Below, one piece after another: positions 6,819-26,000 of a stretch of DNA of 64,000 bases. How positions within the stretch are numbered: position 1 is the stretch's first letter; each line of letters starts with the position of its first letter. The position numbers were made by a program, and so were the translations under genes. A model generated the notes under the pieces. That model saw nothing but the letters and a program-made list of their open reading frames with translations. It was not told the origin of the DNA and did not search any database. Source of the DNA: Spizellomyces punctatus DAOM BR117. Taxonomy: Eukaryota. The stretch lies in the NCBI GenBank assembly GCA_000182565.2, contig KQ257466.1; one strand, written 5' to 3'.

Positions 6819-8678
6819 ATGCCGGCAACCTATTTGCGAATAACGATAACACCACATCGGCCGGGGTCTTTGCCGGGGTACGACGGTGACCGGCGAGTCG
6901 AGTGGTCCATTGCCGAAGACGCCGTCTCCATTGCAGAGGCACAGCGCAAGACGAGGGATGCCCTGAGGGTTTTGCGGGCGTTTTGGGAGGAAGGGGCTCC
7001 GGGTGGCTTGCGGTTTGCAGAGTTTGCCAAAACAGTATTGGCGGATGGTCCGAGCTCGCCAACGACACCTGTACCAACTACAAGAGGCAAGCTGGGTTCT
7101 AGCGAGGACGGGGATGATGACTCAGGAGAGGATCAAATCGACTTGGTGGATCCACTAGCGGAAAAGCTCGTTCGTCACCCCAATGTACTTCCCGCATTCC
7201 TCTCGGATCTCCGCGACTGGGATTCCTTTCGGTTATTGTTGCGCCGGCATGGAGGCGAGGTGCCTTTTGAAGGAAATGGCTCGCCGGTGCAGGCCGTAAC
7301 GTCTCGTGCTAATGCTGCTGGTGGTGACTTGAACACTGCCCTCGTGCAGTCCAACGCGGCGACAGCCGATAATAGCAGCACGAGTGAACACTCGTCCTCG
7401 TCATCTCCACCTTTGACACAACCTCCCCCTGGCGCCACGTCGGTTCTCCTCTCAGCCCTTGCCACCCGCGAACGTCAATGGCAAGATGAGCGTGCTTCGC
7501 TCCATGCCGCTCTCTGGGCCGCTGGAGAGCAGGTTCGTACATTGGTAGCAACACTCACAGACGCTCTGGAAAAAGTGGCTGCCATTTCGGATGGCGCAAC
7601 CGACTGCAACTCGGTCCCGTCTCGTACTTCCAAAACAGTGCGATGGGACGAACTCGTTCTCAAACGCGAGGTCATACGCGAAAGTGCCGCACAGTGGGGT
7701 CTTGGCCCGTCAGACGGTAACCATTTGGACTGGAGGGAAGCAGAGTGGCTCAAGGAACTCGCTAAGCAGGAGCAAGTAGTTCGTGCCCGTGGTGACTCGG
7801 GCCCAGGCTTAAATTTCTCTCTTGAAGATATCTTGGCAGTTGTGAAAGCTGGAAGGCGACTGACCAATCATGGCGCTACGGATGAAAAGGACGGTTACAT
7901 GTATGTGACTGAACAACACAACGACGACGACCATGACGAGGATGACGATACTGAAGAGGATATCGAGGATGACATGGTGGATGCTCGGCAAGCTCCCTTA
8001 CCACACGGCAACAGTGGACCAACCGCATCCGTCATTGATCTCAACGGTCATGCTCAACAAGAACGACAGCCGGACGATGAGGACGAAGACGACACAGAGT
8101 CCGAGGACGAAACCAATGCAGCCATGCTCACGGCTCGATTGGAACAACTCCGGAAATTGGCTGATCTGGCCGTTGCAAACGCGGCTGGATCTGCAGACTC
8201 GGAACCCGTTCAAGGGGCAGCACCTTCCGCCGAGCAAGTGCAAGACGCTGTCCATGTCCCAGCTGCCGCCCCGTTACCTCCCATCGAAGAAGCGGAAGGC
8301 GAGCCCAACGACCCATCAGCCTCCTCTGAAACTCCCAAAGCCGACACACCCATCCTCATTGCCTCTGGACGCCGCCCCCGCTCCCGTCCCTCTCTAGACA
8401 CCCCACCCGTCCTCATCGCCTCGGGACGCCGCGACCGCCCAAGCTCCACGGACTCTACCACTACCACTCCGCCTAAAATGGAACCAACCCCCCCGTCCAC
8501 CCCTCCCCCGAGCGTCGTTGACACCCCCGCCCAACTTGTAACAAAACAACGGGACGAACCCATCACGTTTACGGAGGCTTTGGCTCTAGATAAACTTTCT
8601 CCTGTAGAAAAGAAGCGGACTTCGAGCTTGGTGAAACGGGTCTGGAGAAAGATGAGCGGAGAGTTTAAAGTCAAATAG
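6819..8678 (+). CDS. Hypothetical low-complexity/disordered protein (~619 aa) with coiled-coil and acidic tracts
   Basis: Long intronless ORF with the first ATG at 6819, D/E- and P/T-rich stretches and a T-rich 3' flank. No family recognised. Confidence 0.75.
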   Translation: MPATYLRITITPHRPGSLPGYDGDRRVEWSIAEDAVSIAEAQRKTRDALRVLRAFWEEGAPGGLRFAEFAKTVLADGPSSPTTPVPTTRGKLGSSEDGDDDSGEDQIDLVDPLAEKLVRHPNVLPAFLSDLRDWDSFRLLLRRHGGEVPFEGNGSPVQAVTSRANAAGGDLNTALVQSNAATADNSSTSEHSSSSSPPLTQPPPGATSVLLSALATRERQWQDERASLHAALWAAGEQVRTLVATLTDALEKVAAISDGATDCNSVPSRTSKTVRWDELVLKREVIRESAAQWGLGPSDGNHLDWREAEWLKELAKQEQVVRARGDSGPGLNFSLEDILAVVKAGRRLTNHGATDEKDGYMYVTEQHNDDDHDEDDDTEEDIEDDMVDARQAPLPHGNSGPTASVIDLNGHAQQERQPDDEDEDDTESEDETNAAMLTARLEQLRKLADLAVANAAGSADSEPVQGAAPSAEQVQDAVHVPAAAPLPPIEEAEGEPNDPSASSETPKADTPILIASGRRPRSRPSLDTPPVLIASGRRDRPSSTDSTTTTPPKMEPTPPSTPPPSVVDTPAQLVTKQRDEPITFTEALALDKLSPVEKKRTSSLVKRVWRKMSGEFKVK

Positions 8679-9394
8679 TCTTTTTGTAGATTTCCGCAGG
8701 GTGGTATTGATTTTTTTCCTTTATATAATGTTGATTAGCTTTTATTGTTTTCCTATGTGTTTTGAGTTTTATTATGCTTCTTTTTGGATTTAGCTTGTGA
8801 ATTGTCTTTTTTTTTTCTGGAGTTTTAATAGTCTTGTTTTGTTATGTTTCCTTTTTGCATGTTTAAACATTCCACTTGGTATTTTATGCACAATGAGATA
8901 TAATCCCGCTCCTCTCTGTAACTCCAATATTCCCTGCATTTGCCCAGCCCTATTCATTGATATTCACCCGCATCAGTAGATACATAGCCTAACCTAACCG
9001 TAACACCGGGAGTTCCACCGCCATGATGGCTGTTGGAACCATCAGCCTTGCCCTTGCTCTTTACTACGAAATGCAACGTAACCCCGACCTTTTGACCACC
9101 AAGGCCGCAGATGTCAGGCAGGCACTGGGGCTCAAGTTGCCAGGAGGCTTCAAAATGAAAGACGGTCCTACACAAGACGTTGTTGGTGAAGACGTTTCAA
9201 CCAGGAGCCGTTTCCGTCTGTCTCAGTGCATCATATAAGAGTCTTGATGCTCTGAGACAGGGGTCATACATACAGTGATTATACAGTGGTAGACTTCATC
9301 TAGCTGAACAAACCATATTCCCATAGGGAACCCTACTTGATATGTGCTGGTACTGAACCACGTCAGGAACACACACACACACAAGAGTATGACA

Positions 9395-10060
9395 GCCACG
9401 TCCACCCAACTGCAATAGCAATAGGAATTGGTTGCTACCACAAAGATTTGCTATTAAAGGTACTATTATGCTACTGCATGAACGGTGCTTGATTGGTATG
9501 TACTGATGGCATTGTTGGGTAAAGTCAAGTTATTGGTGTTTGCCTGCAACTAGACTTGTTGCACTTGAGAGGTCGATAGCTCTGTTAGAAGCTATGCTGG
9601 AGAATGGCTCTGGGCACCTTGTGTGTCAAGAGAGATCACAGGGTGGCAACCTGACTTTGACCTCTAATTTTGGGCACATAAGACAACTAACTAAGAATAA
9701 GTTTTGCAAGCTTGTAGCGCGGATTCAGGGCTTTCTAGAACCGTTTTGGTCTTGTTGATAAGTTAACAACTCGCCTAGTTATGCAAGTTACCGTCCCATG
9801 ACAATCTCGATGAAATTAATGAATTTCAACAGGCATCATATCTGTTCCATTCTGTCATCTGGCTGACATGCAGTTTTAGTCTCCAAGCCTTTGTTCACAA
9901 AAATCCTCCGGCTTGCGAGTCTCACTGATGTTAACTCTCTTGCGAAGACTCTGGCTTCAATCCCATCAAGAGTTCCGGATCAACGTCCAAGCTTAAATTA
10001 GCTTTTCCGAACCGGTTGTCGCCGGTTTCTTCCCTGGTGTAGTTAGCTAGTGTCAGTTTC
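9395..10060 (+). repeat. Dispersed repeat family B, copy 2, interrupted by a solo LTR
   Basis: Homologous in inverted orientation to 2336-2625 on both sides of the 9513-9831 insertion. It also has ~55 extra nt near 9975-10030. Confidence 0.75.
9513..9831 (+). mobile_element. Solo LTR (~319 bp) with 5-bp target-site duplication GGCAT
   Basis: Starts TGTTG and ends CAACA, flanked by GGCAT at 9508-9512 and 9832-9836. The paralogous uninterrupted locus near 2510 has a single GGCAT. Confidence 0.85.
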
Positions 10061-10607
10061 TTCTATGTAAGCAGTGTATATGTCATCTCGTAAGCTCTTC
10101 CTGTGTCCCATGCTCATACCTAAACTTAACCCTAAGGTATAATGTTTGGTTGCGTGGTATATAGATATTCATAGTATGGTAGCATCTATAAAGAGACAAT
10201 GGTGCGCGTGGTGCTGCTGGCTGTCCATTGTTCCTGGTGTCTAAACAATGGAATTTCCTTATCTTCAATCATGACCCCAGAAAAACATGCCCCACACTTT
10301 GACGCAAATTAGACTGCGGTTAATGCACATAACGTTCATAAAAGCTTCATATTTCGTCCCGCCAGTTCTGTCAAACCTGCCTGAGAAATCGGTTATGTCA
10401 TAACTTATTCATACCTATCAAAAGTAACTTGAAAGATCAGCCTGAAATTTAGCAGTCCTATCCTACTCTTCCTTATTCCATACGTTTACCAAAATACCAG
10501 CGAATTGATTCCCTCGGTTGCCGGGTTTGTTGCCACCACCTCTTCTGACCTTCTAGTTCAACCAAGAACTTATCTTGTAAACATTAGTAACGAATCCACC
10601 ACGCAGA

Positions 10608-11587
10608 ATGATCACGCTTCGAGAACAACGTCAAGTCGGGATCTTATTCACGGGGTTCGCTCTCGGAATCACCTCCTCAGCCCTCATAAACTGGTCACGA
10701 AAACACCCAAAAAACAGGAACGTCATACTTCAGCTCTATTCCATCCTCCTCTCCGCCGTCGCCAACATTCTCATGTTTATCATTGCCCACGAGATCCTTA
10801 ACGATCGGTACGGTAAACCAGCAACAATTGCATCCTTCCTGGCCAACAATTGTAGCGACTTTCAGCAGTACTTTTTGACTTACTTTTCCGTGATCCGATT
10901 CGAATCACTCATTTACCCACGCAACCGGCGGGCAACGTGGGGGATTAGATCGTGGGCATTCCTCATAGTTGCGCTTTACTTTATCGACCACCTGATGACG
11001 TACATTGCAATGGCGAAATGCAACATGGAAAACGTTGCGACTTTTATCCAAAGTTACTACTTCAACAGTATCGGTAAATCCTCCGCGATGGCCGGATTGT
11101 TCCTCTACCTCGTCATGGTCCTCGTGGTGGACATCTGGCTCATCGTCAAGATTCGAGACTCGCAAAAAACGTTGACAAAGGGTGTCAACCTCCAAGCAAG
11201 CCATACTCAAATCGCTATTATAATCATGTGTGTTGTGGTGAAGCTCGCCGAATCCGCTTTCAAGCTGGTGAGCGTACTCACCACCTATGGCGCGCTGGAC
11301 TCGTACATCCGGGGCATCACCTGCGCGATCGAGATTTGGTCCATTACCGAGCTTGGCGTTACGGTGGAGGAGATTATGAAAGTTAAGCGTCCCGGACAGT
11401 CGAGCGATCCTCCTAGTCAAGAAACGCGGGAAGGAGGTAAAAACTTGTACCTTTTACCAAGGGTGTTTGGAAAGAGCGCGGAGAGTAAATTTTCTTTTAA
11501 ATACTCAAATGGTTTCTTGTTTTTACAACAGCTTTAGCGGATGACCCGACCAATATCCGCAGGAACACACACAAGTCCCCGGCTTGA
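10608..11587 (+). CDS. Orphan multi-pass (about 7TM, GPCR-like) membrane protein
   Basis: The 309-aa ORF has about seven hydrophobic segments, an 'SVIRF' at the end of predicted TM3 and a polar C-tail. A probable intron at ~11437-11537 gives a stop at 11585-11587. Confidence 0.65.
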
Positions 11588-12063
11588 GGTCCCCGATGCT
11601 CAAGTAGATATTATTGAGCTGGAAGAATTAGAATTCCCTTTTGGAGATGAGATGCGCTTACAATTATGTTTGCAGCGCATCATGCATTAATCAGATTGAT
11701 GTTCAGTGTTAATTTTGTCAAGTACTTGCATTGTCGAGTGGTGATAGAAAAGCAGGCAGGGCCTTGTGGGAACCAATGGCATTAAAGAGGGGTTTACTTT
11801 TGTTGGACCCATTCCAAAGTATGATTTCAATTATTTACTCTCAGAAATGACACGAATGTCCGCCGGAGGCCCGTGAGGGGTGTGTGGAGGCCCACCAAAC
11901 GTCTCATGGAACTTTTTGGCAGCTCCAGATGCGCTCAATCACCCTGCAAGCAAACAACATCTGTCATCTCCCGCGGGTGCCCAAACGGTGGGTTGGGGTA
12001 CGGATGCCCATGTAATCCCCATGTGTGGGTGGGTACCCATGACGCGCCCGCGTGGGTGCCTGC

Positions 12064-12416
12064 TTTCATCGGAAATGACAAAGGACGGAAACTTGAATAA
12101 CTCTGCGAGTTATTAAGTTATCGACAAGATCAAAACGGTTCTAGAAAGCCCTGAATCGTGGCTACAAGAATGTTAAAACGGTTTCTTAGTTAATTGTCTT
12201 ACACGCTCAAAAGTAGAGGTTGAAAGTCAGGAAGTCATCATGTGATCTGTCCTATACTTAGCACCCGCATTTTTCTACAATACAACTATTTCACTATTCT
12301 GTTGACACTTAGAGATGTTCCGCAGTGACAGCATAGCTTCTAACAGAGCTATCCACCTCTCAGGTGCACCAAGTCTAGTTGCAGGAGCAAGCCCTAAAAC
12401 TCAACCTTACCCAACA
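12064..12416 (-). mobile_element. Second, diverged copy of the same LTR in opposite orientation, 3' end truncated or unclear
   Basis: The reverse complement begins TGTTGGGTAA and shares long blocks with 9513-9815 (GCAACTAGACTT, GATAGCTCTGTTAGAAGCTATGCTG, GATTCAGGGCTTTCTAGAACCGTTTTG, CGATGAAA). Confidence 0.8.
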
Positions 12417-13130
12417 CTTCTCATGCTCTTGGTAGGACTTTCCCTACCCCCTAGTGCCAGCTCCCTCAACCTTCAGGTCTCATAGGCATCTCGGACCCAC
12501 TCCCAAATCATCGGTTCTTAACCATGCATGCTGCCCAGTGTCCACACCTAGGTCCTTCTGAGCATCCTTCACCAAGTGATAGTGCCGCCACACCTCTGTG
12601 GTCCGGTGCTTGGCATACTTCTGTTCTGCCCATAGAGCATAATTCTCTCAGTAGGCCACTTTCTCACTCTGCAATCATCATGCACTTTGGCTGAACCTTC
12701 TTTTCTGCAGGAACTTTACCTCCTCACAAAGGTCTGACTCCTTGTTGTTGTGATTTCCAGCAACTGTTGTGCTTCCTACCCTCACAACTGGGTTGTCTGC
12801 AGTGGTTGAATACACATGAAAAACGGTGACTACGTGAATGACCAGAACTGAGCAACTGTTATTGTTGATCATTAAAACGCTTGCCTTCTCTATTGTATAC
12901 TCAGCTAACCCTAACCCTAAAAAAAATCCTAATCCACACCTGTGACCGAAGCGACACACGTGTGAGAATACTGTGATTGCTCCAATCACAACACTCGTTT
13001 GCCACTGTGGTCACCACAACCCTTGCCACTGGTACCCTTCTTTGCAAGTTGCTTGCCATTTGTCTAACAACCACTGCATAACATTGGAGCATACACACTC
13101 AACAGATGAATACCATAAGGATAATCAGCG

Positions 13131-13263
13131 TGTTAGGGGTCTTTGATGCGCCTGGATTGGTACGCTCCGTAGGGGCATACTTATAGAACACGCAGGCACA
13201 GACCGACATCGGAGTGTACCATAGGTCTAAGTAGAGCTTTCTTGAGTGTGTTGTACGACAACA
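13131..13263 (-). mobile_element. Possible short LTR-like segment abutting the truncated copia RT
   Basis: The minus strand reads TGTTG...CTAACA with an internal TATAAG and begins exactly where RT homology (LKQSP-like) stops. No TSD seen. Confidence 0.35.
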
Positions 13264-15105
13264 GGGGGAATTGCTTTAAACTGAAAGAGCTTTTCTTAAA
13301 CGCAGCACCCATTCACTACGCGGGTGGCCGGCGGCCTCATAGCCCTCAAATTGCTCGATGTAGACTTTTTTGTCCATGGGACTATTCAGGAAAGCGGTTT
13401 CAGCATCCATAGTGTGAATGTCCATCCGTTTTTGAACAGAATATGCGAGGAATAAACGCAGCGCGGGAAATGCGAGAATCGGTGCGTAGGTATCCAAGTA
13501 ATCGAGACCGAATTGTTGAATGAAGCCTTGGGCTACAGCTCTGGACTTGAAGTTGCTGAATGAGCCATCTGGATTGACCTTTCGGACAGAATACCTAATG
13601 GCTGCCGACTACGCGCTTGTTCGGCGGACGTCGAACTCGTTCCCAAGTCTCACTATCGACTAGTGATTTGTGCTCTTTGGCGGCTGCCTCCATGTACTGC
13701 TTCGCATTCTCAGATGCCATGGCTTGTTTCCATGATAGAGCGTTGGGATCGACGGTTTGCGCGATCGCGTGGCGTATGCAAAAGTCGAGTAGGCATGAGT
13801 GCGGTTTTCCCAGAATTCAAGAGCGCTAGTGTCTTGAAGGATTTCTGCCAGCTCCCAGGTGGGAGTTGTATATCCAACTTGAGCAAGTATTGTTTCCCGT
13901 GCGCCCGGTGGTTGCATTCATGTAGAATTTTCTTGATAGGATATTCGTCATCGTCTTCTCCATGCGCCGGGTCGAGAAGATCGAGTGTGGCGGGATCTTG
14001 TTGATGGGCCAATTCCGGGCCCTTGTCCTCTTGAAGAACCACATCGCGGGAGATCGCCACCTCATCATGGCCGGGGTCCCACGAAAGATAAGGCTTGGTG
14101 CCCGTAGGGTGTCCATAGCCGAGTAGGTAACAATTCCGTGCTCTGTTCCCCATTTTATCTCTTCTTTTCAAAAGGATGACCATATAAGCCACGCATCCGA
14201 TACGCAGCAGGTGGGCAACGTCAGGACGCTTGCCAGTTAGTACCTCGTGGGGCGTCTTGCCGGTTAGGCGGGTCCAACTGAGAGAGTGGAGATATACTGC
14301 CATTTGTAGCAGCACAGGCCAAAATCTTGTGGAAGCTTGGTTTCAGCGAAGATTGCTCGTACACGATCGAGTGCTGTACGATGCCAGCGTTCGGTGCTGC
14401 CGTTTTGCTGACTAGAATAGGCTGCATATGTCTGGTGCTGGATTCCATGTTCAACCAGATATTTCTTAACAGCGCCGAGGTATTCAGTGCCCCGGTCGGT
14501 ATGCAAAATCTTGATGGATCGACTGGTAAGCTTTTCTATCCATGCTTTATATTCAATAAACTTCGCCAGGATGGTTTTCAAGTCCTTGGTTGCAATGGGA
14601 TAGACTGCTGCCACTCTGGATTTGTGTTCGATGAACTCCAGAGAATAACGCGACCCGTCGTAGCCGGGAATCTGAAATGGGCCTTGCAAATCGGAATGTA
14701 CGAGGTCACAAAGTTCCCTTGGTTCGTCATTACCAGAAAGGAAAGGAAGTCTGGCTGCTTTGGCCAACCAGCAGGGTTCGCAATCTTTGATTGTATTAAA
14801 ATCACCCACTACGGACCAACCGTCCGTAGCGTCTGCCATCTTTGGCAATACATGTTTACCGCAGTGTCCTAGTCTAGCATGGGCAATTTCGGTAGAGACT
14901 TCTACAGTGCAGGCTTCCGCGTCCAACCCAAGGCTTTGCCGCGGCGTACACCTTTAGCGATGTCTTGGCCGTCGTGCGTGAAAACTACTTCACCGGTATG
15001 CTTGAAAAGAACATCGACGCCGTGAGCATTACATTTTGAAACGGAGAGCAGGTCGTGTCACAAACTGGGTACATGCACAACGTCGCGCAGCTCGAGCGGA
15101 TTGGA
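13264..15105 (-). mobile_element. Degenerate Ty1/copia LTR retrotransposon pol fragment (protease end - GAG-pre-integrase - integrase - chromodomain-like - partial RT)
   Basis: Domains are in copia order on the minus strand: LRDVVHVPSL*HDLLSVSK (protease C-terminal region), HARLGH..CEPC, LVHSDLQGP, LHTDRGTEY, QQNGSTER, TPHEVLTGKRPDVAHL, ISRDVV, then RT FKSRAVAQGFIQQFGLDYLDTYAP..MDAETAFLNS..VYIEQFEGY..LRLRKAL. Several frameshifts and stops; RT C-half and RNase H are absent. Confidence 0.93.
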
Positions 15106-15331
15106 AAAGTCTTTCATTCCGACGCGGATAGTACCGCAAACCATAGAACTGATCGAGCGTTTGCCTGCAAGGGTGACCTTTCTTATATCTTCATTAACAC
15201 ACTCGCAAAACGGATATTTCCTTGCAATTATGTTCACCAGACTGATTCAACTTTTTGTATCATTCAAGGCGGGTGTCCTTAAACAATAGTTCAATCACCG
15301 TATTCTAACATCCAAGGCAAATTGTGTTTAC

Positions 15332-16442
15332 TTACTTTTTAGCCGCCATCCAATCTTTCAACAACACTTTACCACACGCGCACATCTCCGCATTCCGTTT
15401 ATTAGCCGGTAATGCCCAATACCCCCGTTCCGCACTCCGCAGCTCCTCCATTGCCTCACGTTCAACCTTTTTCTTTGTCTTTTCCCACACTTTAACGAAT
15501 CCAGGGGACTTTTGTCCTGCGTTACGTGCTGCATCCAGGTTTTGGTCCAATAGTTGGTGGTAGTTGGTGTGGATGTGCACAATATGCATGTGACGCATGG
15601 TTTTGACGGCATCAGGGAGTGTGACATTGTTGATACCCTGAATGTAATCATTGCATGTCTTTGAATCGTCTCGGAGGTCAAGATGGTAGACTTTAAGTTC
15701 TTTTGCAAGCTTTTCCCGTCGGGCTTGGATGCGGGCTTTAGTATGCATTTCTCTAGCTTTTTCGAGATTGCGCATTTTCTTGTGCATTGCTGCGAGGCCT
15801 TTGGGACCGTGGTATTTGGCATATGCGTAGGCGGCAACGTCAGAGCGCAAGTAGAGATGCATTGGGCGTGTGCTTCTGTACCGTGGATTTTTACGCCGGA
15901 CATAATAGAGTTTGGATAAATCCTTCTCGGTTAATACGTATTCCTTTTTGGCGTTTGTTTTAGGGATGGTTTCATCTGGATGGCATTTTGTACAATTTTG
16001 TTTGCCAGTGAACTCTGAAAGTAGTTTTGTCGTCCCGCAGGCCTTGCACTGGGTGTCCAAGACCTAAAACAAGCGGGGTAAGAACCATCTATCTCAAATT
16101 CCAATACAATTCAATTACCCTATTGTCTAGCTCAGCACTTAATAGGATTGCACGATCGAACCTCAGAATCTGCCTCTCTTGCCAGAACTGTCGCCGAGAC
16201 AGTATTTGCCGCCACACTCGAGCTGTTTGAGACAGGCTTCTAGCATCAGTGGGATCAATCAATTCACATATCCTCTGCTTTAGCTCGAACGAGAGCCCTT
16301 GTAAGGTAGCTGTTTCTGACACCTGTACAACTGCTTGACCGTCGGACGGTGTAACTATCTCCATCGGACAAGTCTGATGGGATGAGATACTTTGGCATGG
16401 TTTGTCATCCTCCATAGCATCCTCCTCCTGTAGACTGCACAT
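15332..16442 (-). CDS. F-box protein with C4 Zn-finger and XPA/Rad14 C-terminal-like domain, 2 exons
   Basis: Exon 1 carries an F-box-like LQGLSFELKQRICELIDPTDARSLSQTARVWRQIL. A 55-nt GT-AG intron (16064-16118) joins in frame to CKAC..CTKC, then IPKTNAKKEYVLTEKDL..RKNPRY..PMHLYLRSDV (XPA-C pattern), then LDLRDDSKTCNDYI. Confidence 0.75.
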
Positions 16443-17018
16443 TGATGGTTTTCGTGTGTTAAGAGTGTCAGAGGTCGTTGTCGTGTGTTAAGAGTCTCAG
16501 AGAATCAACAAATGGTTCGTATGAAAACAAGACTATAATTGGGAAGCTTTGAACGGGTCCTCCGTTACGTCATGCACAAAAGCCTCACGGCTTGACTCAT
16601 ATGTGTTCTGCTCATATCAACCATTGTATGTGGTGCATTGTCTACACATGGCCTGGTGGAAGCACCTTCAAGTGTCGCTTAAATTTACTGTCCTGGCAAT
16701 AGATGGACCGTTTGCGCGACTTGGGCTGCGAACTGAGGGTATGGAAATGAACCCAGTTCCAGACCGCAAAGAAACGCGGCAGACCGCTGCTACGAGCAAA
16801 GACCGCATAACGAGGAACAAGAAACAACCAAATCTAGTCAAGCGAGCGAGATGTATGCATCCTGCTTGGGGCATCTCTCAAGGGAAGCGCGAGCCAGAGG
16901 CTCGTCGGAGGATGTCACGTGCATGCTTACGAGGCGCGTACACGTTACTGCGGAGTCTGGTTCAGCAAGATCTGTACGTAGTTCTAGCAGCTTTTACGCA
17001 CATCGCCGGGGTCCCATC

Positions 17019-20000
17019 ATGTTGGAGGGTTCGGTCCTTCCTCCCAAGGAGGGAGAGGATGCTGCAAACTCAACAACAGCTGGACATGTATCCATGTCAC
17101 GATCCCCTTCACAATCGTCGCGACAACAACTCACGTCGTACCTCTCATCCGACCGCTCCGCATCTCCACCCATGCGACACGCCAGCTCTGCTGCATTCCG
17201 AAAAAAGAGTTCTCCCTATGGTTACAAAACTGTTGAAGAGAGGAGGGCGGAAGAACGAGCCCATGCACTGGCGGCTAGATTGCATACTGTCGCCGGCAAG
17301 GGTGAAATACCACGCTTTGACGTCAGAAGAGTCATGGCGTTGCCAAAAAGACCGGGAAGCGGGGAACGTCTGATGCCACTGGACAATCATTCAATCCATG
17401 GATCTGCCGAGGCCGTGTCACCAGCTGCTGTAAGTATCTGCCAAAAAAGTGTGGTTCAGGACCAAATCATTCAATGAGATCTTGTATTTCTACAGTCCCG
17501 CCCACGGGAAAGATCCGAAAGATCCGTACTAAGAGCCAAAAAGCCACTCGTCATACCCGCTAGCTCCGCGCGATCCCAATCCGGCAAACGGGCGTTACAG
17601 ATGGCCTCTGAGCTCAAAGGTGTGAACGATATCCACATGCCTCACAAAGCGACTGAAGAGCCACTCAGTAGGCCGCCATTAGCATTTCGCGCACTCACAC
17701 CTCCAGTTATTCCTCCCATCGGTACCAGTTCAAGAGACCAGCCCGATGTCAAACGGATTCGCATATCCGAACCCGGCAGGCGAGAACAAGTTGAAATGGA
17801 CAGAGTGGAATACCCAGCGTCGAAACCCGTTCTACAGCAGATAGACGAGGGTGTGGTGACAAAGCGAGCGACAAAGGACCTATTTGCCTTTATCCGTCAT
17901 TTAGAATCGTGTCCTACCTCGAAAGAGTTTGTGTATTTGAACGCTGTAAAACTGTCGGTAAAGCGGGGACAGCCGACTTTCAACCCCTATAATCTTGAGA
18001 TTGTAGACTACGCCGATGTGGATAAAGACGGAGGATACTATACTATCAGTGCAGCGGTAAGCCTTGTTATCATACATCTCCGCCTCATTTTCGTTGCACG
18101 TCTGACAATGGTTGGAACAATATCAGGGAGTAACGCACTTTGATCATCAAGGCCACGGTGATTTTACACCTCTAAATCAGTGGCTCCGAGAATATAAGCT
18201 GTTTCATAATTTATTGCGCATCCCCTTTTTTGCAAGATATCGCTTGTGGAAGTGCTTCAGCCTCTGGCGCAGAACAGTGCTTCATACGAAAATCACGCAA
18301 AACCGTCGACAACTGGCCAAGAACCTGTTCCTAGTTCACCCGATTCTTCGATCAACCCTTTTGGAAATTCGCGTCAGATGCGTTGATGTGCTCACCAACA
18401 AGCGATTAGTTAAGTTACAAGAGCAGCACAGCTACGAGCTAGCGGACTTTGTGAAGGAGCAGAAGGCTTGGGTTGAGGAAAGTGCGGGCTCTTTAAAAGA
18501 ATGGGAGACTACCGTACGCCGACTGGTAGAGCAGGCTGGAGTGGCGTGTTTGCGGGAAAAGGGCTTTGAAGTGGAATGGGCAGAAAATCACCAGGGAGAA
18601 TCTGGAGATAAACCTGATGAGTTGGCGCCTTTATCGAGTGGCAGTCGGCCCACAAGTGCTCTAAAGAAAGCCGTGGAGGAAATTGAACCTCGAAAATTGA
18701 CTTACACGGAGCAAGCTGCTCGACGCACGGAATGTCGTCGTCTTCAACGTTTTGTCAAGCTCGCCGATTACATGATCGTCACAACCCTTCATATCTTGAC
18801 CATTGAAAGTGTACGTGATCTTTTACGGTTCGTCCTCCGTGGATGCATGGATGAAGATGTGTTCGTAGACTCTTCCGGCAGCGGATCCATTGTGATCTCT
18901 GACCCTGGAATGCTTGGCGAAGGGCGCTTGTCAGAATTACTGCAGAATGAAGACAATGGTCGTGCTCGACCTGGCTTGGAACGAACTGGCTCTGTCAGCG
19001 GTGCAGATGCGTTTGGTATGGCTCCCAATGGTGGTGTCCAGGTTGGCGGTGTTGTTGTAGGCGAGGAGGTCGGAACAACGGAACTTGCCGATGCTGGGTT
19101 CGACGGCTTCTTTGGCATTTTGAGTCGGATTATTAAGGCTGCAATGCCAAAGTTGGAGTTGATTGAAGTTATTGAAGAACAAGGGCTCATGGCTGGAGGC
19201 ACGAACATGATGGACGTAGACGATCGACTGGTTCCTGCCGATGGAGCTGGAAAAAAAGTCGGAGATACGAAAGCGGCAAGCAATATCTCCTCCAATCATG
19301 GAAAGGAAAAGGAGAAGGCCGCCTTCGTTCCGCTCTTCCGTACTGAGCTTCTCTTACAGCTTGCTGCCGCTGTGCGGAATCTCTACTTTGCACCCTCCCT
19401 CCCAGACTATCTTGCAGCAATTGACATCCTCTTCAAACTATATCTCAATACTGTCGAGAAAGTCTCTCTTCTCACAAATACGATATCTTATCTGGACCCT
19501 GCCAGCGTTTCTGGCGGAGCTTACTCGTCTGTTCGAGGCTTGGAAGAGGCAGAGTACGGCGAAGGTCCTCAAATTACCGCAATCATAACAGAGGGTGCGT
19601 ACTTTAGGGAAGTATGTGGCCGTATTCGCGGTGTGCTTGTGGGTATCTTCTCTAATGCGGCAAAGTGGATGAAGACTTGGGAGGAGGTTCGTGGAATGTG
19701 GGTTGAGAACGAAGAGTTTGAGGGGTTAAGGGCCTTGGAGGCAGCTGCGGGTCATGTAGCCGTTGTGCTGGCTACTGCCGGGAATCAACCTGTTGAGGGA
19801 GGGGTTGCGGCCGTGTTAATGGCCTCCTTAGCGAATACTGTCGAGCCGTCGAACGGAGACCAAGAGGAGAGCGAGGGCACGCAGACAGAAAAGCAATCGA
19901 GTATCCTCGAACTAGGATCTACAATTATTACTCGCCCGGACGGTACAACCTTCTCTCCAGTCGTTGACTTTTTCGAGCATCACCTCGCCAAATTCTCCTC

Positions 20001-23000
20001 TCAGCGTCAAACGATGGCGGCAATTCCAACCACCTCCGTGATCAACAACCTGCTTATTGACACTACGAAACTCAAAAGCATTCTTGTCCCGAGTCCAGAA
20101 AGATGTTTTGCGGAAGTTGCCAAGATCTTACCTGGTCTTGCGAGGGATAAGAATGAGTTGCTGTTGAATGAAGTTCAGACATGGGTTAGAATTCTCAATA
20201 CCCAGCCTGGAAACGTTGAAGGCTTTGTCGAATACTTGGAGTGGCTTGAGAAAGGTACTATAAGAGATTGCTCACATCAATCTAAATAATGACACTCATC
20301 ACTTGGACATTTCCGCTATAGTTAAGGACTCGATGCCCCTTGTGGAGCAACTTTACGATGAGGTCACACGCCTCTACAACTTGATGGATCAGTACAAGAT
20401 TGCAATTCAGCCGACAGACCTGGCATTGTACCAAACCTTGGGACCAACCCTTCGCCAATTGAAAGAAGCCGTCGATATGGCGTCGGACACGAAAGAAGAG
20501 AACATCAACAAATTCTCGGCGGAACTTGATAAATCAATGGGAGACCTCATGACGGAAGTTTCAGAGATTCGCAATCGCGCACAAGACCCAATGGTGCTCA
20601 ATCCGGGTGCCAAGAGTGACATGGTTATCAAATTCCTGGAGGACTTACGAGGACAGTTGGAGAAGGTTGATGCTACAAAAGGACGGTATGAAACATGGGG
20701 TGAGCTTTTCAAAGATGGCGGAAGTGTGGCAGCTATGAAGAAGGGTGCTGCGGCGGCCGCGGAGCCGGGAAAGGCTGCGATCCCTGGTGTACCAACTAAA
20801 ATGGGGGAGTTGGAGGAGACGAAGAATGAGGTGGAGCTGAAAAGAACGCTCTGGATGAGTTTGAAAGACTGGGAAGTCATTACTCGGTAGGTGTTCGAGT
20901 TTACCCAAGTAGTGCTCCATAAGACGATAAATGTAACATTGCAATGTCCCTTCTTCGTGCACTAGGTCCTGGAAAGAAGGGTCATTTGATATGCTGAACA
21001 CGGAGGACATCAACAACCAAATCCAAGCTTACATCAAAACCGTCTATAACCTGGACAAGGGTCTCCCGCCAAACGAAGTCGTTCCTCGACTCAAAGCCAT
21101 GGTTGATGAGTACCGAAGCATGTATCCGACGATTGTTGACCTCCGCAATCCCGCCCTCAAGCCGCGACATTGGGAAAGATTCACAGACGCCCTCGGAAAG
21201 CACTGGTGAAAGACGAAACGTTCACCTTGGAGAGGCTGATGGACCTCCGCGTTTTTGATTTCAAAGACGAAATCAGTAACGTCTCGAGTCAAGCTGGTTC
21301 TGAAGCAGCCTTGGAAGAGATGTTGGGTAAAGTTATCAAAAACTGGAACGAGGCCGAATTTATTGTTGCTTCCTATCGAGACGCCAAGGATGTATTTATT
21401 CTGGGCACCGTCGACGATATACAAACATTGCTAGAGGACAGTCAGGTCACCATTGCGACAATCAAAGGATCACGGTTTATTGGGCCCATTCGCACAGAAG
21501 TGGATAGATGGGACAAGCAGCTGACTTTGTTTGCTGAAACACTGGATGCATGGTTGACGTGTCAACGGAACTGGCTTTATCTTGAGAGCATCTTTTCTGC
21601 TCCAGACATCCAACGCCAACTTCCCGATGAAGCCCGAATGTTTGCTCAAGTCGACCGTAGCTGGAAGGACACGATGAGAAAAGTCTATCGAAATCCCAAT
21701 GCCATGAAATCTGGCACGACACCCGGTCTATTGGAAACAATGGGGCAAAATAATGTCCTTTTAGATCAGATTCAGAAATGTCTCGAAGACTATCTGGAGA
21801 GCAAGCGGCTACTGTTCCCCCGATTTTACTTCCTATCAAACGAAGAGCTCCTCGAAATCTTGTCCCAAACACGAAACCCGCAGGCAGTTCAACCACATCT
21901 CAGCAAGTGTTTCGATGCCATTAAATCTCTTGAATTCTCTTCATCGGATCCAAAGAGCATTGACATTGCCGCGATGGTCAGTCCCGAGGGTGAGCGCGTG
22001 CCATTCCTGAAAACAATCAAAGCCCGTGGTAACGTGGAGGCGTGGCTGGGAAGCGTGGAGGAAGGCATGGTAGCCGTTCTCCGGCGGTTGATTAAACAGG
22101 CATTGGCAGAGTTTGAGGATGCCAAGCGCGGGGATTGGGTTAGAGAACATGTTGGGCAGGTAGTTTTAACGGGAAATCAGGTCTTGTGGTGTAGAGATGT
22201 CGGCGAATGTTTGAAGACAGCAGATCCAGTCAAGAGTCTGGTGGCTTTCAAAGAAAAATGTGTCCGGGTAAGTAGGACACGCTACGAAATCTATTCGCAA
22301 TCATTCGGTTGGCATGTATAGCACTACGGTATCTAAAACCTTCCTAACCTTATAGAATCTTGCCGGCGTGGCCGCCCTCGTCCGTGGAGATCTTACCCGC
22401 ATCCAACGGGGCATTCTTGGTGCACTCATCACGATGGATGTGCATAATCGCGACATTGTCCAAAACCTCATTGACGCNNNNNNNNNNNNNNNNNNNNNNN
22501 NNNNNNNNNNNNNNNNNNNNNNNNNNNNNNNNNNNNNNNNNNNNNNNNNNNNNNNNNNNNNNNNNNNNNNNNNNNNNNNNNNNNNNNNNNNNNNNNNNNN
22601 NNNNNNNNNNNNNNNNNNNNNNNNNNNNNNNNNNNNNNNNNNNNNNNNNNNNNNNNNNNNNNNNNNNNNNNNNNNNNNNNNNNNNNNNNNNNNNNNNNNN
22701 NNNNNNNNNNNNNNNNNNNNNNNNNNNNNNNNNNNNNNNNNNNNNNNNNNNNNNNNNNNNNNNNNNNNNNNNNNNNNNNNNNNNNNNNNNNNNNNNNNNN
22801 NNNNNNNNNNNNNNNNNNNNNNNNNNNNNNNNNNNNNNNNNNNNNNNNNNNNGATTGGCTCAGTCCGGTGCTTGGTGTTGTTTTGATGAGTTCAACCGTA
22901 TCGATATCGAGGTGCTCTCCGTTATTGCTCAGCAGCTTTTGACAATAAAGAATGCAAAGGATATGAAAGCGACCAGGTTTATGTTCGAGGGAAGGGAGAT

Positions 23001-26000
23001 CAGATTAATCGACACTTGTACAGCATTTATCACTATGAATCCTGGGTATGCCGGACGTCAAGAGTTACCGGACAACTTGAAGGCGCTTTTCAGACCTATT
23101 GCAATGATGATTCCTGGTATATTTATCATGTCTGGTTATAAGGTGAAGCATCAAGTGCTAATCTGCGGCTCCCTCCTGACAGATTACGGCCTTATTGCCG
23201 AAATCTTGCTCTTCTCGGAAGGATTTGAAAATGCGCGAGTTCTTGCCGGAAAAGTTGTAAACCTCTACAAACTCTGCTCTGAACAACTCTCCCAGCAGGA
23301 TCATTACGATTTCGGCATGCGAGCCGTCAAATCCGTGCTCATCATGGCGGGCGCCCTCAAGCGTACCAACCCAGAACTCAGCGAAGAAATGGTTCTCATC
23401 CGTGCACTGCGGGATTCAAATCTTCCCAAATTCTTGGCTGAGGATATTGGCTTGTTCCGTGGTATCCTTTCTGATCTCTTCCCAGGTGTCTCCATCGTGG
23501 AGCAGGATTACGGTGCTCTAGTCGCAACGATCAAGGAAGTGATGATTGAAAAGAAGTTGGAGGTTGTGGACAACTTTGTGACGAGAATCTGCCAGTTGTT
23601 TGAAACGAATAAGATTCGGCATGGTGTTATGCTTGTTGGACCCACTGGAGGTGGAAAGACGACATGTTATCAGGTCTTGCAGGAAGCTTGTACTAGATTG
23701 CAGGAGAGAGGAGATGTACAGTTCCAGGCTATCAAGACTTGGGTTCTTAATCCAAAGGTATGATCATGTCGTAGTTCCAAGTCCATATGTCATATTTTCA
23801 TACCATATAACAGTGCATCACAATGAACGAACTCTACGGAGAATTCAATCTGGCCACCATGGAATGGAAAGACGGTCTGATCGGTTCCATTTTCCGTCAA
23901 CAAGTTCAGGACAACAGTGCTGATGAAAAGTGGACCGTTTGCGACGGACCCGTAGACGCACTTTGGATTGAGAACATGAACACTGTCCTAGACGACAATA
24001 AGCTCCTCACGTTGATCAACGGAGAACGAATCAAGATGAATAATACTATGCATATGTTGTTTGAAGTGGCGGATTTGGCTGTTGCGTCTCCTGCCACGGT
24101 CAGTCGATGCGGCATGGTATACATGGATCCTACCAACCTGGGCTGGCGGGCTTTTGTTCAAAAGTGGCTGCGTGAGCTACCGGAACATGTTGGAACAGAG
24201 CTCAAGGATATGTTGTGGAGTTACTGTGACACGTACATTGACAGGGGACTCCGCTTTGTACGAAAACAGTGTACGGAGTACGTCAAATCTGTCGACCTGA
24301 ATCTGGTGCAGTCTCTGTGCAAGCTTCTACAAACCTTCATCAACAAAAAGGAGGTCGATTTTTCGCAGGCCATTGGAGATTTGAAGTGCTTATTCGGCCA
24401 TTTGTTTGTATTCTGCTATGTATGGGCCTTGGGTGGAAACCTGGCAGATGGATTCCAGGACAACTTTGATACGTTTGTCCGAGACCATTTCGACGCAATC
24501 CCAATTCCGGATGTACAGTTACCGTCTTCCAACAACATCTTTTGTTACTATGTCGACCTCAAGACCAAATCATTTGCCCTTTGGGATGACCTGGTGCCAG
24601 CCTTCAAGTACGCACCCGAGATCCCTTATTTCCAAATGATGGTCCCAACGACGGATACAGTCAAGTACGAGTACTTTCTCGAAGCCCTCTTGTCGAATGG
24701 ATACCCGACTTTGTTCACGGGTAACACCGGTGTTGGTAAATCCATTATTGTCCAAAATTTATTGAACAGGTGCTCGAAACGATTCGGATGGGTCCCTGTG
24801 ACGCTCAACTTTTCTGCCCAAACCAACAGCGCCCAGACGCAGCAGATTATGGAAATTAAGTTGGAGAAGAAACGAAAGAATATTTTGGGTGCACCCACAG
24901 GAGCGAACAAGGTTGTCCTGTTTGTGGATGATTTGAACATGCCCAAGCTCGACACCTACGGGTCGCAGCCTCCTATCGAGCTCTTGCGGCAGTACATTGA
25001 TTTCCACGGATTTTACGACCGAGAGAAACTCAGCTGGAAAATAATCCAAGATGTAGAACTAGTGGCTGCTTGTGCACCTCCTGGAGGCGGGCGCAACAAC
25101 GTCACACCCCGTCTTCTCCGTCACTTCAATCTATTCAACATTCCCGCGCCTAGCGAAATGTCATTAGGAAAAATATTCCGATCTATTGTGGAAGGATTTC
25201 TCAAGTCCGGCTTCTCATCTGAAGTGCGAGGTGTGAGTGAAGCCATTGTGAACTCGTCCATAGAGATCTACCATCGAATGTGCACAGAGTTACTGCCTAC
25301 ACCCGCTAAATCGCATTACACGTTCAATCTCCGGGATCTATCGAGGGTCGTTCAGGGCGTGCTACAGGCCCGTCCGCAGGTTATTCAAGCCAAGATGGAC
25401 ATTGTGAAGCTGTTTTGTCACGAGTCCTCCCGGATCTTTCACGATAGGTTGATTGACGAGGCGGATAGATCCTACTTTAATCGCCTTCTCTCCGAACTGG
25501 TTGAAAAGAACTTTGGCGTGAGCATACCCAAAGAAACTTTTAGCCAGAAACCAATCATGTTTGGGGATTTTGGCAAGAGGGGTGTTCCCCCCGAAGAGCG
25601 ACTCTACGTTGAGATGAGCGACATGAAGGCCATGAACACGCTGTTGGAAGAGTATCTAGAAGAATACAACGTGACAAACAACAAAGACGTTCGCTTGATC
25701 TTTTTCATGGACGCCAAGCAGCATATTACGAGGATATCCCGTATCATCCGGCAACCTCGCGGCAACGCTTTGCTGGTCGGTGTCGGTGGAACGGGAAAAC
25801 AATCTCTGACCCGGTTGGCCTGTCACATATCCGATTACCAGTGCATTCAAATTGAATTGACGAGGACGTACGGACAAACAGAGTGGCGAGAAGATCTTAA
25901 GAAATTGTACCGATTAGCAGGTTTGGAAGGTAAAAACACTGTATTCCTTCTCTCAGACACCCAAATCAAGAGCGAAACCTTCTTGGAGGATGTGAACAAC

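What the first reader, a model, noticed from the sequence alone, without database searches (positions are those of the whole stretch)
13800..13950. Chromodomain-like module inside a Ty1/copia pol, between integrase and RT
Seen: across one frameshift the minus strand reads DDEYPIKKILHECNHRAHGKQYLLK/VGYTTPTWELAEILQDTSALEFWE, closely following the chromodomain consensus EY.vekIl..r......YLvKW.Gy...TWEp.enl....al..f. The domain order (IN before RT) is unambiguously copia. Known: integrase chromodomains typify Ty3/gypsy chromoviruses and direct integration to heterochromatin, and they are rare in copia. Inference: a chromodomain-bearing copia lineage in a zoosporic fungus, possibly with chromatin-targeted integration.
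Basis: partly seen in the sequence, partly recalled or inferred. Interest (0 to 1): 0.75.

Follow-up and report, generated by a model that had tools for sequence, protein, structure and literature searches.

The report
Dead copia fragment with integrase chromodomain
This is a broken, inactive piece of a Ty1/copia jumping gene whose integrase once ended in a chromodomain, a rare design already reported in diatoms that probably steers new insertions into silent chromatin.

Summary
On the minus strand at 13789-13952, two reading frames carry the two halves of a chromodomain. They sit inside a decayed, LTR-less internal fragment of a Ty1/copia pol (about 13105-15198). The order is PR end, IN zinc/core, IN SH3-like domain, chromodomain, then RVT_2. 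It is not a nested gypsy piece. The fragment is colinear with a 1666-aa gag-pol protein (P0151) that has the same order in one ORF. Six unnamed environmental proteins have SH3_retrovirus, Chromo and RVT_2 in one protein, with Pfam Chromo above its cut-off. The family keeps the HP1-type Y-W-Y cage, matches solved H3K9me3/K27me3 readers, and folds as a chromodomain. The window copy is dead. It is truncated at both ends, has at least five frame changes and two stops, and lacks the cage tryptophan. Reads from other runs show no indel at the break. The host looks like a flagellated fungus. The design is not new: diatom CoDi-A/CoDi-I copia were reported with an integrase chromodomain in 2009. I found no report outside diatoms. 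Heterochromatin-targeted integration is inferred, not shown. Kinship to CoDi-A could not be tested.

The parts
13105..15198 (-). Whole relic: an internal Ty1/copia pol fragment, colinear with residues 313-1021 of the 1666-aa gag-pol protein P0151. It lacks gag, the PR N-terminus, the RT C-terminus, RNase H and LTRs.
   Evidence: tblastn gives four HSPs in frames -2, -1, -3 and -2, at 55%, 66%, 59% and 40% identity. Nothing in the window matches P0151 residues 1-312 or 1022-1666. There are no direct repeats of 30 nt or more in 7000-21000. There is no second copy in the window.
14932..15198 (-). C-terminal part of the protease (beta-barrel) region, with one in-frame stop.
   Evidence: tblastn to P0151 residues 313-401, 55% identity. 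The stop is visible inside the alignment.
14759..14914 (-). Integrase N-terminal zinc-binding region (gag_pre-integrs).
   Evidence: Pfam PF13976, 23.2 bits (below the cut-off of 28.4), at residues 14-65 of ORF 14264-14953(-). It lies within the 66%-identical HSP to P0151.
14414..14698 (-). Integrase catalytic core (rve).
   Evidence: Pfam PF00665, 29.6 bits (cut-off 32.6), at residues 86-180 of ORF 14264-14953(-). 66% identity to P0151 residues 411-616.
14016..14237 (-). Integrase C-terminal SH3-like domain (SH3_retrovirus).
   Evidence: Pfam PF25597, 61.2 bits (cut-off 27), at residues 36-109 of ORF 13710-14342(-).
13953..14015 (-). Short acidic linker between the SH3-like domain and the chromodomain.
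   Evidence: Translation. It aligns with the equivalent P0151 linker.
13878..13952 (-). Chromodomain N-half. It holds the first cage tyrosine (the 'EY' motif) and strands 1-2, and ends at the lysine before the missing tryptophan.
   Evidence: 20.2 bits on its own against the family HMM. It aligns to P0151 up to residue 765.
13789..13878 (-). Chromodomain C-half, in the next frame. It holds the third cage tyrosine (the 'GY' motif), the 'TWE' motif and the C-terminal helix. The cage tryptophan between the halves is absent.
   Evidence: 38.5 bits on its own. It aligns to P0151 from residue 767. Reads show no indel here.
13105..13788 (-). Pre-RT segment and the N-terminal two-thirds of a copia-type reverse transcriptase (RVT_2). 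It has further frame changes and a stop, and ends about where the YVDD box is expected.
   Evidence: Pfam PF07727, 74.4 bits (cut-off 31.6), profile positions 30-120 of 244, at 13285-13563. tblastn to P0151 reaches residue 1021 at 13105. Frames are read.

Best explanation
The segment is a real chromodomain remnant. It sits at the C-terminal end of the integrase of a Ty1/copia LTR retrotransposon, directly before RT. In copia, where IN precedes RT, this corresponds to the integrase C-terminus of gypsy chromoviruses.

The window holds one dead copy. It is an internal pol fragment without LTRs, truncated at both ends, with at least five frame changes and two in-frame stops. The chromodomain itself has lost its cage tryptophan. 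It does nothing now.

It is a fossil of a copia lineage whose intact members encode PR, IN (zinc region, rve core, SH3-like domain), an acidic linker, a chromodomain, then RT and RNase H in one ORF.

Inferred mechanism for intact members (about 0.55-0.6 likely):
1. After protease processing the chromodomain stays on integrase as its C-terminal module.
2. Its Y-W-Y aromatic cage binds a methylated histone H3 tail, most likely H3K9me2/3, possibly H3K27me3.
3. This tethers the integration complex to silent chromatin, so new copies land away from genes.

Shown here: the architecture, the family, the cage residues and the fold. Inferred: histone binding, which mark is read, where the polyprotein is cleaved, and the targeting outcome.
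For: **Architecture in the window.** Pfam SH3_retrovirus scores 61.2 bits and RVT_2 74.4 bits. rve and gag_pre-integrs fall just under their cut-offs.

**Colinearity.** The fragment is colinear with P0151 residues 313-1021 at 55-66% identity in PR and IN. The chromodomain lies between the SH3-like domain and RT with no extra sequence.

**Family.**
- Of the 150 proteins listed in an exhaustive phmmer search (4588 with E <= 0.001), I ran Pfam on 18. Three had Chromo above the cut-off (P0002 32.7, P0003 33.8, P0004 36.7 bits). Two more (P0006, P0012) are cut off inside the domain and score just below it.
- Of 120 listed long relatives of P0003, 4 carry both PF00385 and PF07727. All four have the order rve, SH3_retrovirus, Chromo, RVT_2.
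- P0277 adds a sixth such protein.

**Cage.** In the seven aligned copia chromodomains, W26, G28, Y29, W34 and E35 are invariant. Position 4 is Y in 6 of 7 and W in 1 of 7. That is the Y-W-Y pattern of HP1 and group I chromoviral chromodomains (passages of PMC3605345).

**Solved relatives.** The family profile hits 74 distinct PDB sequences at E <= 0.01. The best are CDY1 (1.3e-18), then CDYL, MPP8, HP1, Clr4 and Chp1.

**Fold.** In the AlphaFold2 model of P0002, residues 120-176 form three strands and a helix at block pLDDT 83-90. The ten best Foldseek hits are all chromodomains. Examples are Chp1 with H3K9me3 (target TM 0.78, rmsd 1.5) and, further down the list, HP1 (0.80, 1.6).

**Position.** The C-terminus of Ty1 IN and of Ty5 IN carries their targeting interactions, and Ty5 is targeted to silent chromatin via Sir4 (passages of PMC5911963). 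Chromoviruses are described as using chromodomains to direct integration to heterochromatin (Gao 2008, as quoted in PMC6673714; the paper itself is not held).
Against: - No binding or integration data exist for any member.
- Which histone mark is read cannot be told from sequence.
- The IN/RT cleavage site is unknown, so the chromodomain could remain on the RT N-terminus.
- Pfam Chromo did not detect either unjoined half of the window copy.
- Foldseek gave no hit at E <= 0.001; the best was 4.8e-3.
- The structure alignment had only 12 rows, and pTM for the whole 222-aa model is 0.39.
- All relatives come from unnamed assemblies. None is shown to come from a fungus or to be flanked by LTRs.
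- There is only one copy in the window and no host genome was available. The family's copy number, activity and insertion sites in this host are unknown.
- The ChIP runs cannot be interpreted because their antibodies are not known to me.
Confidence: 0.8

Rival explanations
1. The chromo-like piece is a fragment of a Ty3/gypsy chromovirus nested in, or fused to, a copia relic. It would then not be part of the copia pol.
For: Such juxtapositions exist. P0299, a Microbotryum gene model, joins a complete gypsy chromovirus pol to a 5'-truncated copia. The nearest non-copia chromodomains are gypsy ones: P0271 at 58% and P0272 at 49% identity to the P0151 domain.
Against: In P0299 the Chromo domain (1217-1266) follows the gypsy SH3_Tf2-1 domain and precedes the copia SH3 domain. 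That is the opposite order to the one here. The window is colinear with P0151 from the SH3-like domain through the chromodomain into RT, with no gypsy-type domain. Six proteins carry SH3_retrovirus, Chromo and RVT_2 in one ORF.
Confidence: 0.02
2. The chromodomain is real and belongs to the copia pol, but it does not aim integration. It might serve nuclear import or retention, recruit or evade silencing factors, or act as an N-terminal extension of RT.
For: The cleavage site between IN and RT is unknown. The domain ends only about 46-54 residues before the RVT_2 profile start in five of the six proteins that carry the order in one ORF (in the sixth, P0248, the RVT_2 match starts later and at profile position 9). 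Chromodomains have other partners too: cpSRP43 is among the structural and sequence hits.
Against: The intact Y-W-Y cage and the closest solved relatives are all methyl-lysine histone readers. The position matches the targeting tail of Ty1 and Ty5 IN and the chromoviral integrase chromodomain.
Confidence: 0.15
3. The family is simply part of the already described diatom CoDi-A/CoDi-I copia clade. It would have been inherited from an old copia branch or transferred horizontally, so nothing here is a separate acquisition.
For: CoDi-A INs are reported to carry a putative C-terminal chromodomain (PMC2774666; PMC5348765). There is one weak lead: the best ESM Atlas cluster for P0151 residues 640-900 has diatoms as its commonest phylum. 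Its score is 0.85, below the 0.9 the tool treats as meaningful, and the phylum is known for only 5 of 63 members.
Against: None is direct. I could obtain no CoDi sequence, so the RT/IN phylogeny was not done. The window's host looks fungal, not diatom.
Confidence: 0.25
4. The resemblance to a chromodomain is a chance match in junk DNA.
For: Pfam Chromo did not hit either unjoined half.
Against: 68 bits against a maximum of 9.8 bits in 1000 shuffles. It is the only hit among 1975 six-frame pieces. The chromodomain tree gives 58% identity to the P0151 chromodomain over 57 columns, with flanks colinear.
Confidence: 0.01

Closest known systems
CoDi-A (also called CoDi-I) Ty1/copia elements of the diatom Phaeodactylum tricornutum
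   Same: They have the copia gene order and a (putative) chromodomain at the integrase C-terminus, that is, before RT. Seen in passages of Llorens et al. 2009, PMC2774666, and Ustyantsev et al. 2017, PMC5348765.
   Different: The host here appears to be a flagellated fungus. Phylogenetic relatedness is untested because no CoDi sequence could be obtained. The main text of the original diatom paper does not mention the domain.
Chromoviruses (chromodomain-bearing Ty3/gypsy elements) with group I chromodomains
   Same: A chromodomain is fused to the integrase C-terminus. The Y-W-Y cage is kept. The domain sequences are very alike: P0271 is 58% identical to P0151 across the domain and shares the same C-terminal helix motif. 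In the chromodomain tree, 8 of 9 copia domains fall in one unresolved cluster with 15 of 17 gypsy domains.
   Different: The RT is RVT_2, not RVT_1. IN precedes RT. The integrase C-terminal domain is SH3_retrovirus (PF25597), not SH3_Tf2-1 (PF24626).
Ty5 and Ty1 integrase C-terminal targeting regions (yeast copia elements)
   Same: They belong to the same superfamily, and the targeting determinant is in the same position, the IN C-terminal tail before RT. Ty5 is aimed at silent chromatin (passages of PMC5911963).
   Different: Ty5 and Ty1 use short peptide motifs that bind Sir4 or RNA polymerase III subunits, not a folded histone-reader domain.
CopiaMBD elements of arthropods
   Same: A copia lineage captured a chromatin-reader domain that is thought to bias integration towards repressed, repeat-rich DNA (abstract and passages of PMC6673714).
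   Different: The captured domain is a methyl-CpG binding domain, not a chromodomain, and the host range is different.

Membership tests
Ty1/copia (Pseudoviridae) LTR retrotransposon | The pol domain order is PR, IN, RT (IN before RT). | tested here: met
   gag_pre-integrs/rve at 14414-14914, SH3_retrovirus at 14016-14237 and RVT_2 at 13285-13563 follow one another on the minus strand. The fragment is colinear with P0151.
Ty1/copia (Pseudoviridae) LTR retrotransposon | The RT is of the copia type (Pfam RVT_2, PF07727). | tested here: met
   74.4 bits against a cut-off of 31.6.
Ty1/copia (Pseudoviridae) LTR retrotransposon | Flanking long terminal repeats and gag. | tested here: not met
   The window copy has no direct repeats of 30 nt or more in 7000-21000 and no match to P0151 residues 1-312. 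It is a truncated relic. P0151 has a gag domain. LTRs of relatives could not be examined because only proteins were available.
Chromodomain (Pfam Chromo, PF00385) | A match to the Pfam Chromo model at or above its gathering score. | tested here: inconclusive
   For the window copy as it stands, neither half hit at E <= 1, and the X-bridged peptide was not sent to Pfam. For eight relatives the feature is met, at 32.0-54.4 bits against a cut-off of 25.1. The window peptide scores 68 bits against an HMM built from seven of them.
Chromodomain (Pfam Chromo, PF00385) | Three aromatic cage residues (Y-W-Y in HP1). | tested here: not met
   The window copy keeps the first and third but lacks the tryptophan, at the frame break. 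In the family the cage is kept: Y or W at position 4, and W26 and Y29 in 7 of 7.
Chromodomain (Pfam Chromo, PF00385) | A three-stranded antiparallel sheet packed against a C-terminal helix. | tested here: met
   In the P0002 model, strands lie at 120-128, 134-140 and 147-150, with the main helix at 158-176, at pLDDT 83-90. The top Foldseek hits are chromodomains at target TM 0.65-0.80, but E >= 4.8e-3.
Chromodomain (Pfam Chromo, PF00385) | Binding of methylated lysine on a histone tail. | not testable with these tools
   This needs peptide-binding assays.
Chromoviruses (Ty3/gypsy) | A gypsy-type RT (RVT_1) with IN after RT/RNase H. | tested here: not met
   The RT is RVT_2 and IN is upstream of it.
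Chromoviruses (Ty3/gypsy) | A chromodomain at the integrase C-terminus. | tested here: met
   Chromo follows the IN SH3-like domain by 16-36 residues in seven relatives and in the window copy.
CoDi-A / CoDi-I diatom copia | Placement inside the CoDi-A clade in an RT/IN phylogeny. | not tested
   No CoDi sequence was obtainable. The readable supplements hold none, and the chromodomain alignment figure is a PDF.
CoDi-A / CoDi-I diatom copia | Copia order with a chromodomain at the IN C-terminus. | tested here: met
   The feature is described for CoDi-A.

The most novel reading that the evidence does not exclude
A fungal Ty1/copia lineage, unrelated to diatom CoDi-A, captured a chromovirus-type (group I, Y-W-Y) chromodomain at its integrase C-terminus on its own. 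The likely route would be recombination with a co-resident gypsy chromovirus. 'Chromo-integrases' would then have arisen repeatedly in both LTR superfamilies. Intact members would aim at H3K9- or H3K27-methylated chromatin in a zoosporic fungus for which ChIP-seq data already exist.
Probability: 0.35. Interest if true: 0.55.

Novelty: new member of a known kind. Interest (0 to 1): 0.4.

Why it matters
Where a retrotransposon lands decides how much harm it does. Fusing a histone reader to integrase is one of the few known ways elements choose safe sites.

The chromodomain solution was thought to be essentially a gypsy trait, with diatom CoDi-A copia as the single exception. A second copia group with the same layout, here in what looks like a flagellated fungus and in at least ten environmental proteins, suggests the fusion is more widespread or more often re-invented than the literature records.

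Its chromodomains are as similar to gypsy chromoviral ones as to each other. That raises domain exchange between the two superfamilies as a testable idea.

The copy in this window has no function. Its value is as a pointer to the family.

Tried and rejected
- **Host genome.** Not held, so I could not look for other copies in the host. A BLAST of 12500-15400 against the window found only itself.
- **Pfam on the unjoined halves.** No Chromo hit.
- **Atlas on the dynein ORF, to place the host.** No usable hit.
- **Atlas on P0151 residues 640-900.** Only sub-threshold leads, 0.80-0.85.
- **Sequencing runs.** No RNA holder is listed among the indexed runs.
- **Metagenome contig scans.** With A3 and with P0151: 35 pattern matches each, none confirmed. 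So I recovered no LTRs, flanks or habitats for the family.
- **RT tree.** The chromodomain-bearing copia need 3 changes of state. One clade is neither shown nor rejected (AU p 0.372).
- **Chromodomain tree.** 63 columns, largely unresolved. The direction of any copia-gypsy exchange cannot be read from it.
- **Rfam on 9000-17500.** Nothing.
- **Literature.** Six phrases for a copia chromodomain gave 0 papers. 'chromodomain + copia + early-diverging fungi' gave 0. 'chromodomain + copia + chytrid' gave 7 papers; I opened two of the six listed and neither was relevant. 'chromointegrase + copia' gave 2, both about gypsy. The fungal surveys PMC3248453 and PMC5445492 mention no copia chromodomain. 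Gao et al. 2008 is not held.
- **CoDi sequences.** Not in the readable supplements. The PDF supplements of PMC5348765, including its chromodomain alignment, could not be read and may bear on how CoDi-I domains compare.
- **Rejected readings.** A nested gypsy fragment, a chance match and an assembly error. Reasons are under the rivals and the observation check.
Full report
**1. What is in the sequence**

Both peptide halves quoted in the finding are on the minus strand. The first ends the stop-to-stop ORF 13710-14342 (residues 131-155, bases 13952-13878). The second lies in ORF 13660-13917, from base 13878 down to about 13789.

Pfam on the separate ORFs shows the setting:

| Pfam family | Coordinates | Bits | Cut-off |
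|---|---|---|---|
| gag_pre-integrs | 14759-14914 | 23.2 | 28.4 |
| rve | 14414-14698 | 29.6 | 32.6 |
| SH3_retrovirus | 14016-14237 | 61.2 | 27 |
| RVT_2 | 13285-13563 | 74.4 | 31.6 |

Neither half of the chromo-like segment hit Pfam Chromo on its own at E <= 1.

**2. The copy is a relic**

tblastn with the closest full-length relative, P0151 (1666 aa), maps its residues 313-1021 onto 15198-13105. There are four pieces in frames -2, -1, -3 and -2, at 55%, 66%, 59% and 40% identity.

- With the finer pieces given by P0002, the path changes frame at least five times. It crosses at least two in-frame stops.
- Nothing in the window matches P0151 residues 1-312 (gag, PR start) or 1022-1666 (RT end, RNase H).
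- There are no direct repeats of 30 nt or more in 7000-21000.
- There is no second copy in the window.
- The neighbour at 15332-16063(-) is an XPA_C-domain ORF.

The break inside the chromodomain falls at P0151 W766. The alignment stops at residue 765 in one frame and resumes at residue 767 in the next. The copy therefore lacks the tryptophan of the methyl-lysine cage.

Raw reads of three ChIP-seq runs and one RNA run under the same species label list no indel or base difference in 12400-21000. Summed depth over the break is about 31, 62 and 31 in the three DNA runs. So the frameshift is genomic.

**3. Is it a chromodomain?**

An exhaustive phmmer search of 1.84 billion representatives with ORF 13710-14342 gave 4588 proteins at E <= 0.001. 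The best ones align through the chromo N-half.

- I ran Pfam on 18 of the 150 listed. P0002, P0003 and P0004 had Chromo above its cut-off (32.7, 33.8 and 36.7 bits against 25.1). P0006 and P0012 end inside the domain and score just below it.
- P0003 has SH3_retrovirus (102-173), Chromo (209-255) and RVT_2 (304-515) in one protein.
- A search for longer relatives of P0003 listed 120 proteins. Four carry PF00385 together with PF07727: P0151, P0162, P0218 and P0248. In all four the order is rve, SH3_retrovirus, Chromo, RVT_2. Chromo scores are 32.0, 49.5, 41.0 and 40.4 bits.
- P0277 is a sixth such protein, at 54.4 bits.

I built an HMM in the script box from the seven complete copia chromodomains.

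- The window peptide, read through with X at the break, scores 67-68 bits.
- The C-half alone scores 38.5 bits and the N-half alone 20.2 bits.
- The best of 1000 shuffles scores 9.8 bits.
- Of 1975 six-frame pieces of the window, only the two at this locus hit.

**4. Cage and fold**

- In the seven-sequence alignment, W26, G28, Y29, W34 and E35 are invariant. Position 4 is Y in six sequences and W in one.
- That is the Y-W-Y cage of HP1 and of group I chromoviral chromodomains, as defined in passages of PMC3605345.
- The profile matches 74 distinct PDB sequences at E <= 0.01. CDY1 leads (1.3e-18), followed by CDYL, MPP8, HP1, Clr4 and Chp1.
- An AlphaFold2 model of P0002 (12-row alignment, mean pLDDT 76.4, pTM 0.39) gives residues 120-176 as three strands and a helix at block pLDDT 83-90.
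- Foldseek's ten best PDB hits are all chromodomains, several of them solved with H3K9me3. Target TM reaches 0.80 at rmsd 1.4-1.6. No hit reaches E <= 0.001; the best is 4.8e-3.

**5. Not a nested gypsy piece**

The nearest chromodomains outside the copia set are gypsy chromoviral ones: P0271 at 58% and P0272 at 49% identity to P0151's domain.

A profile search over longer proteins gave 45 proteins at E <= 0.001 among 5977 candidates:

| Class, by precomputed Pfam | Proteins |
|---|---|
| Copia type | 7 |
| Gypsy type | 16 |
| Mixed (P0299) | 1 |
| No transposon domain | 21 |

P0299 is a Microbotryum gene model. It is a full gypsy chromovirus pol followed by a 5'-truncated copia. Its Chromo domain follows SH3_Tf2-1 and precedes the copia SH3 domain. 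That is what a nested or fused artefact looks like, and it is the reverse of the order found here.

**6. One origin or several?**

- An RT tree of 133 rows needs three changes of the chromodomain label. For that tree I dropped 24 of the 156 proteins with an RT hit because fewer than 200 RT residues aligned. I added P0248 by its Pfam coordinates.
- A 47-row IQ-TREE groups P0218 with P0151 and P0003 (SH-aLRT 86). P0162 with P0277, and P0248, stand apart on an unresolved backbone.
- The AU test does not reject one clade (p 0.372).
- The chromodomain tree has 47 rows and 63 columns; four short rows were left out. It pairs the window with P0151 (82). It puts 8 of 9 copia domains in one unresolved cluster with 15 of 17 gypsy domains.

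So the copia domain is of the chromoviral type. Neither the number of acquisitions nor their direction is resolved.

**7. Host**

The window encodes a Med15_fungi-domain protein (36.8 bits) and UTP20. It also encodes a dynein heavy chain, running to 30350, whose best solved relatives are axonemal DNAH6-type chains at about 2700 bits. A flagellated fungus is a fair reading, but it is not proven. The organism names of the sequencing runs are coded.

**8. How it most likely works**

In Ty1 and Ty5, the IN C-terminus carries the targeting interaction, and Ty5 is sent to silent chromatin (passages of PMC5911963). Chromoviruses are described as using their integrase chromodomain to direct insertion into heterochromatin (Gao 2008, as quoted in PMC6673714; the paper itself is not held).

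The copia family here places a canonical caged chromodomain 16-36 residues after the IN SH3-like domain (seven relatives). In five of the six proteins with the whole order in one ORF, it ends about 46-54 residues before the RVT_2 profile start; in P0248 the RVT_2 match starts later, at profile position 9. I infer that it stays on integrase, reads H3K9me2/3 (possibly H3K27me3), and tethers integration to silent chromatin. I put this at about 0.55-0.6. None of the binding, processing or targeting steps is shown. The window copy cannot do any of it.

**9. What is known**

- Llorens et al. 2009 report that diatom CoDi-A copia encode INs with a putative C-terminal chromodomain. They state that none was known in other Ty1/copia elements (passages).
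- Ustyantsev et al. 2017 state that a chromodomain had been shown only for chromoviruses and for CoDi-I copia, before adding their own gypsy Chronos group (passages).
- The main text of the diatom paper itself never uses the word.
- I found no report of a copia chromodomain outside diatoms. I also opened passages of two fungal LTR surveys.
- The library lacks most subscription journals and Repbase Reports, so a prior description may exist.
- I could not get CoDi sequences, so kinship with CoDi-A is open.

**10. Verdict**

- The thing itself is a dead fragment.
- The family is a new member of a known kind: LTR retrotransposons with a chromodomain on integrase, copia version.
- It is moderately interesting to transposon biologists.
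- Existing ChIP-seq data for the species make the targeting idea testable.

Noticed in passing
window 12600-21000: The three ChIP-seq runs give two profiles. X19 and X21 have sharp peaks at 13010-13811 (about 50-67 per direction against a background of 2-4) and at 16218-17420. X20 is broadly raised over 13411-15014 (the IN part of the relic) and over the dynein gene body from about 17421 onwards. The dynein gene has almost no RNA reads in X18. The antibodies are unknown to me, so I claim no mark.
   Followed up: partly
window 14213-15014: Weak plus-strand RNA signal (depth 13 and 5.5), antisense to the copia ORFs. The strand is calibrated on the GT..AG intron at 11434-11530 of the neighbouring plus-strand gene.
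   Followed up: no
window 9802-10202 (core about 9998-10043): A short stretch with very high depth in all four runs (RNA about 870). Many reads run on into unlike sequence on both sides, as for a short dispersed repeat or a piece shared by many transcripts. There is no Rfam match.
   Followed up: partly
window 12905-12920 (minus strand): About two and a half telomere-like TTAGGG units lie roughly 190 bases beyond the truncated RT end of the relic.
   Followed up: no
window 15332-16063 (minus strand): An XPA_C-domain ORF (45.2 bits) lies directly upstream of the relic.
   Followed up: no
window 17478-30350 (plus strand): An axonemal inner-arm-type (DNAH6-like) dynein heavy chain gene in several ORF pieces. 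A 375-base run of N lies at 22478-22852 inside it.
   Followed up: partly
protein P0299 (named Microbotryum gene model): A single annotated protein joins a complete gypsy chromovirus pol to a 5'-truncated copia pol. It shows how a chromoviral chromodomain can come to lie next to copia coding sequence.
   Followed up: partly
protein P0006: A copia gag-PR-IN protein that ends inside the chromodomain. It is labelled as from an 'archaeon' in its source record, which is most likely a eukaryotic contig in a metagenome bin.
   Followed up: no
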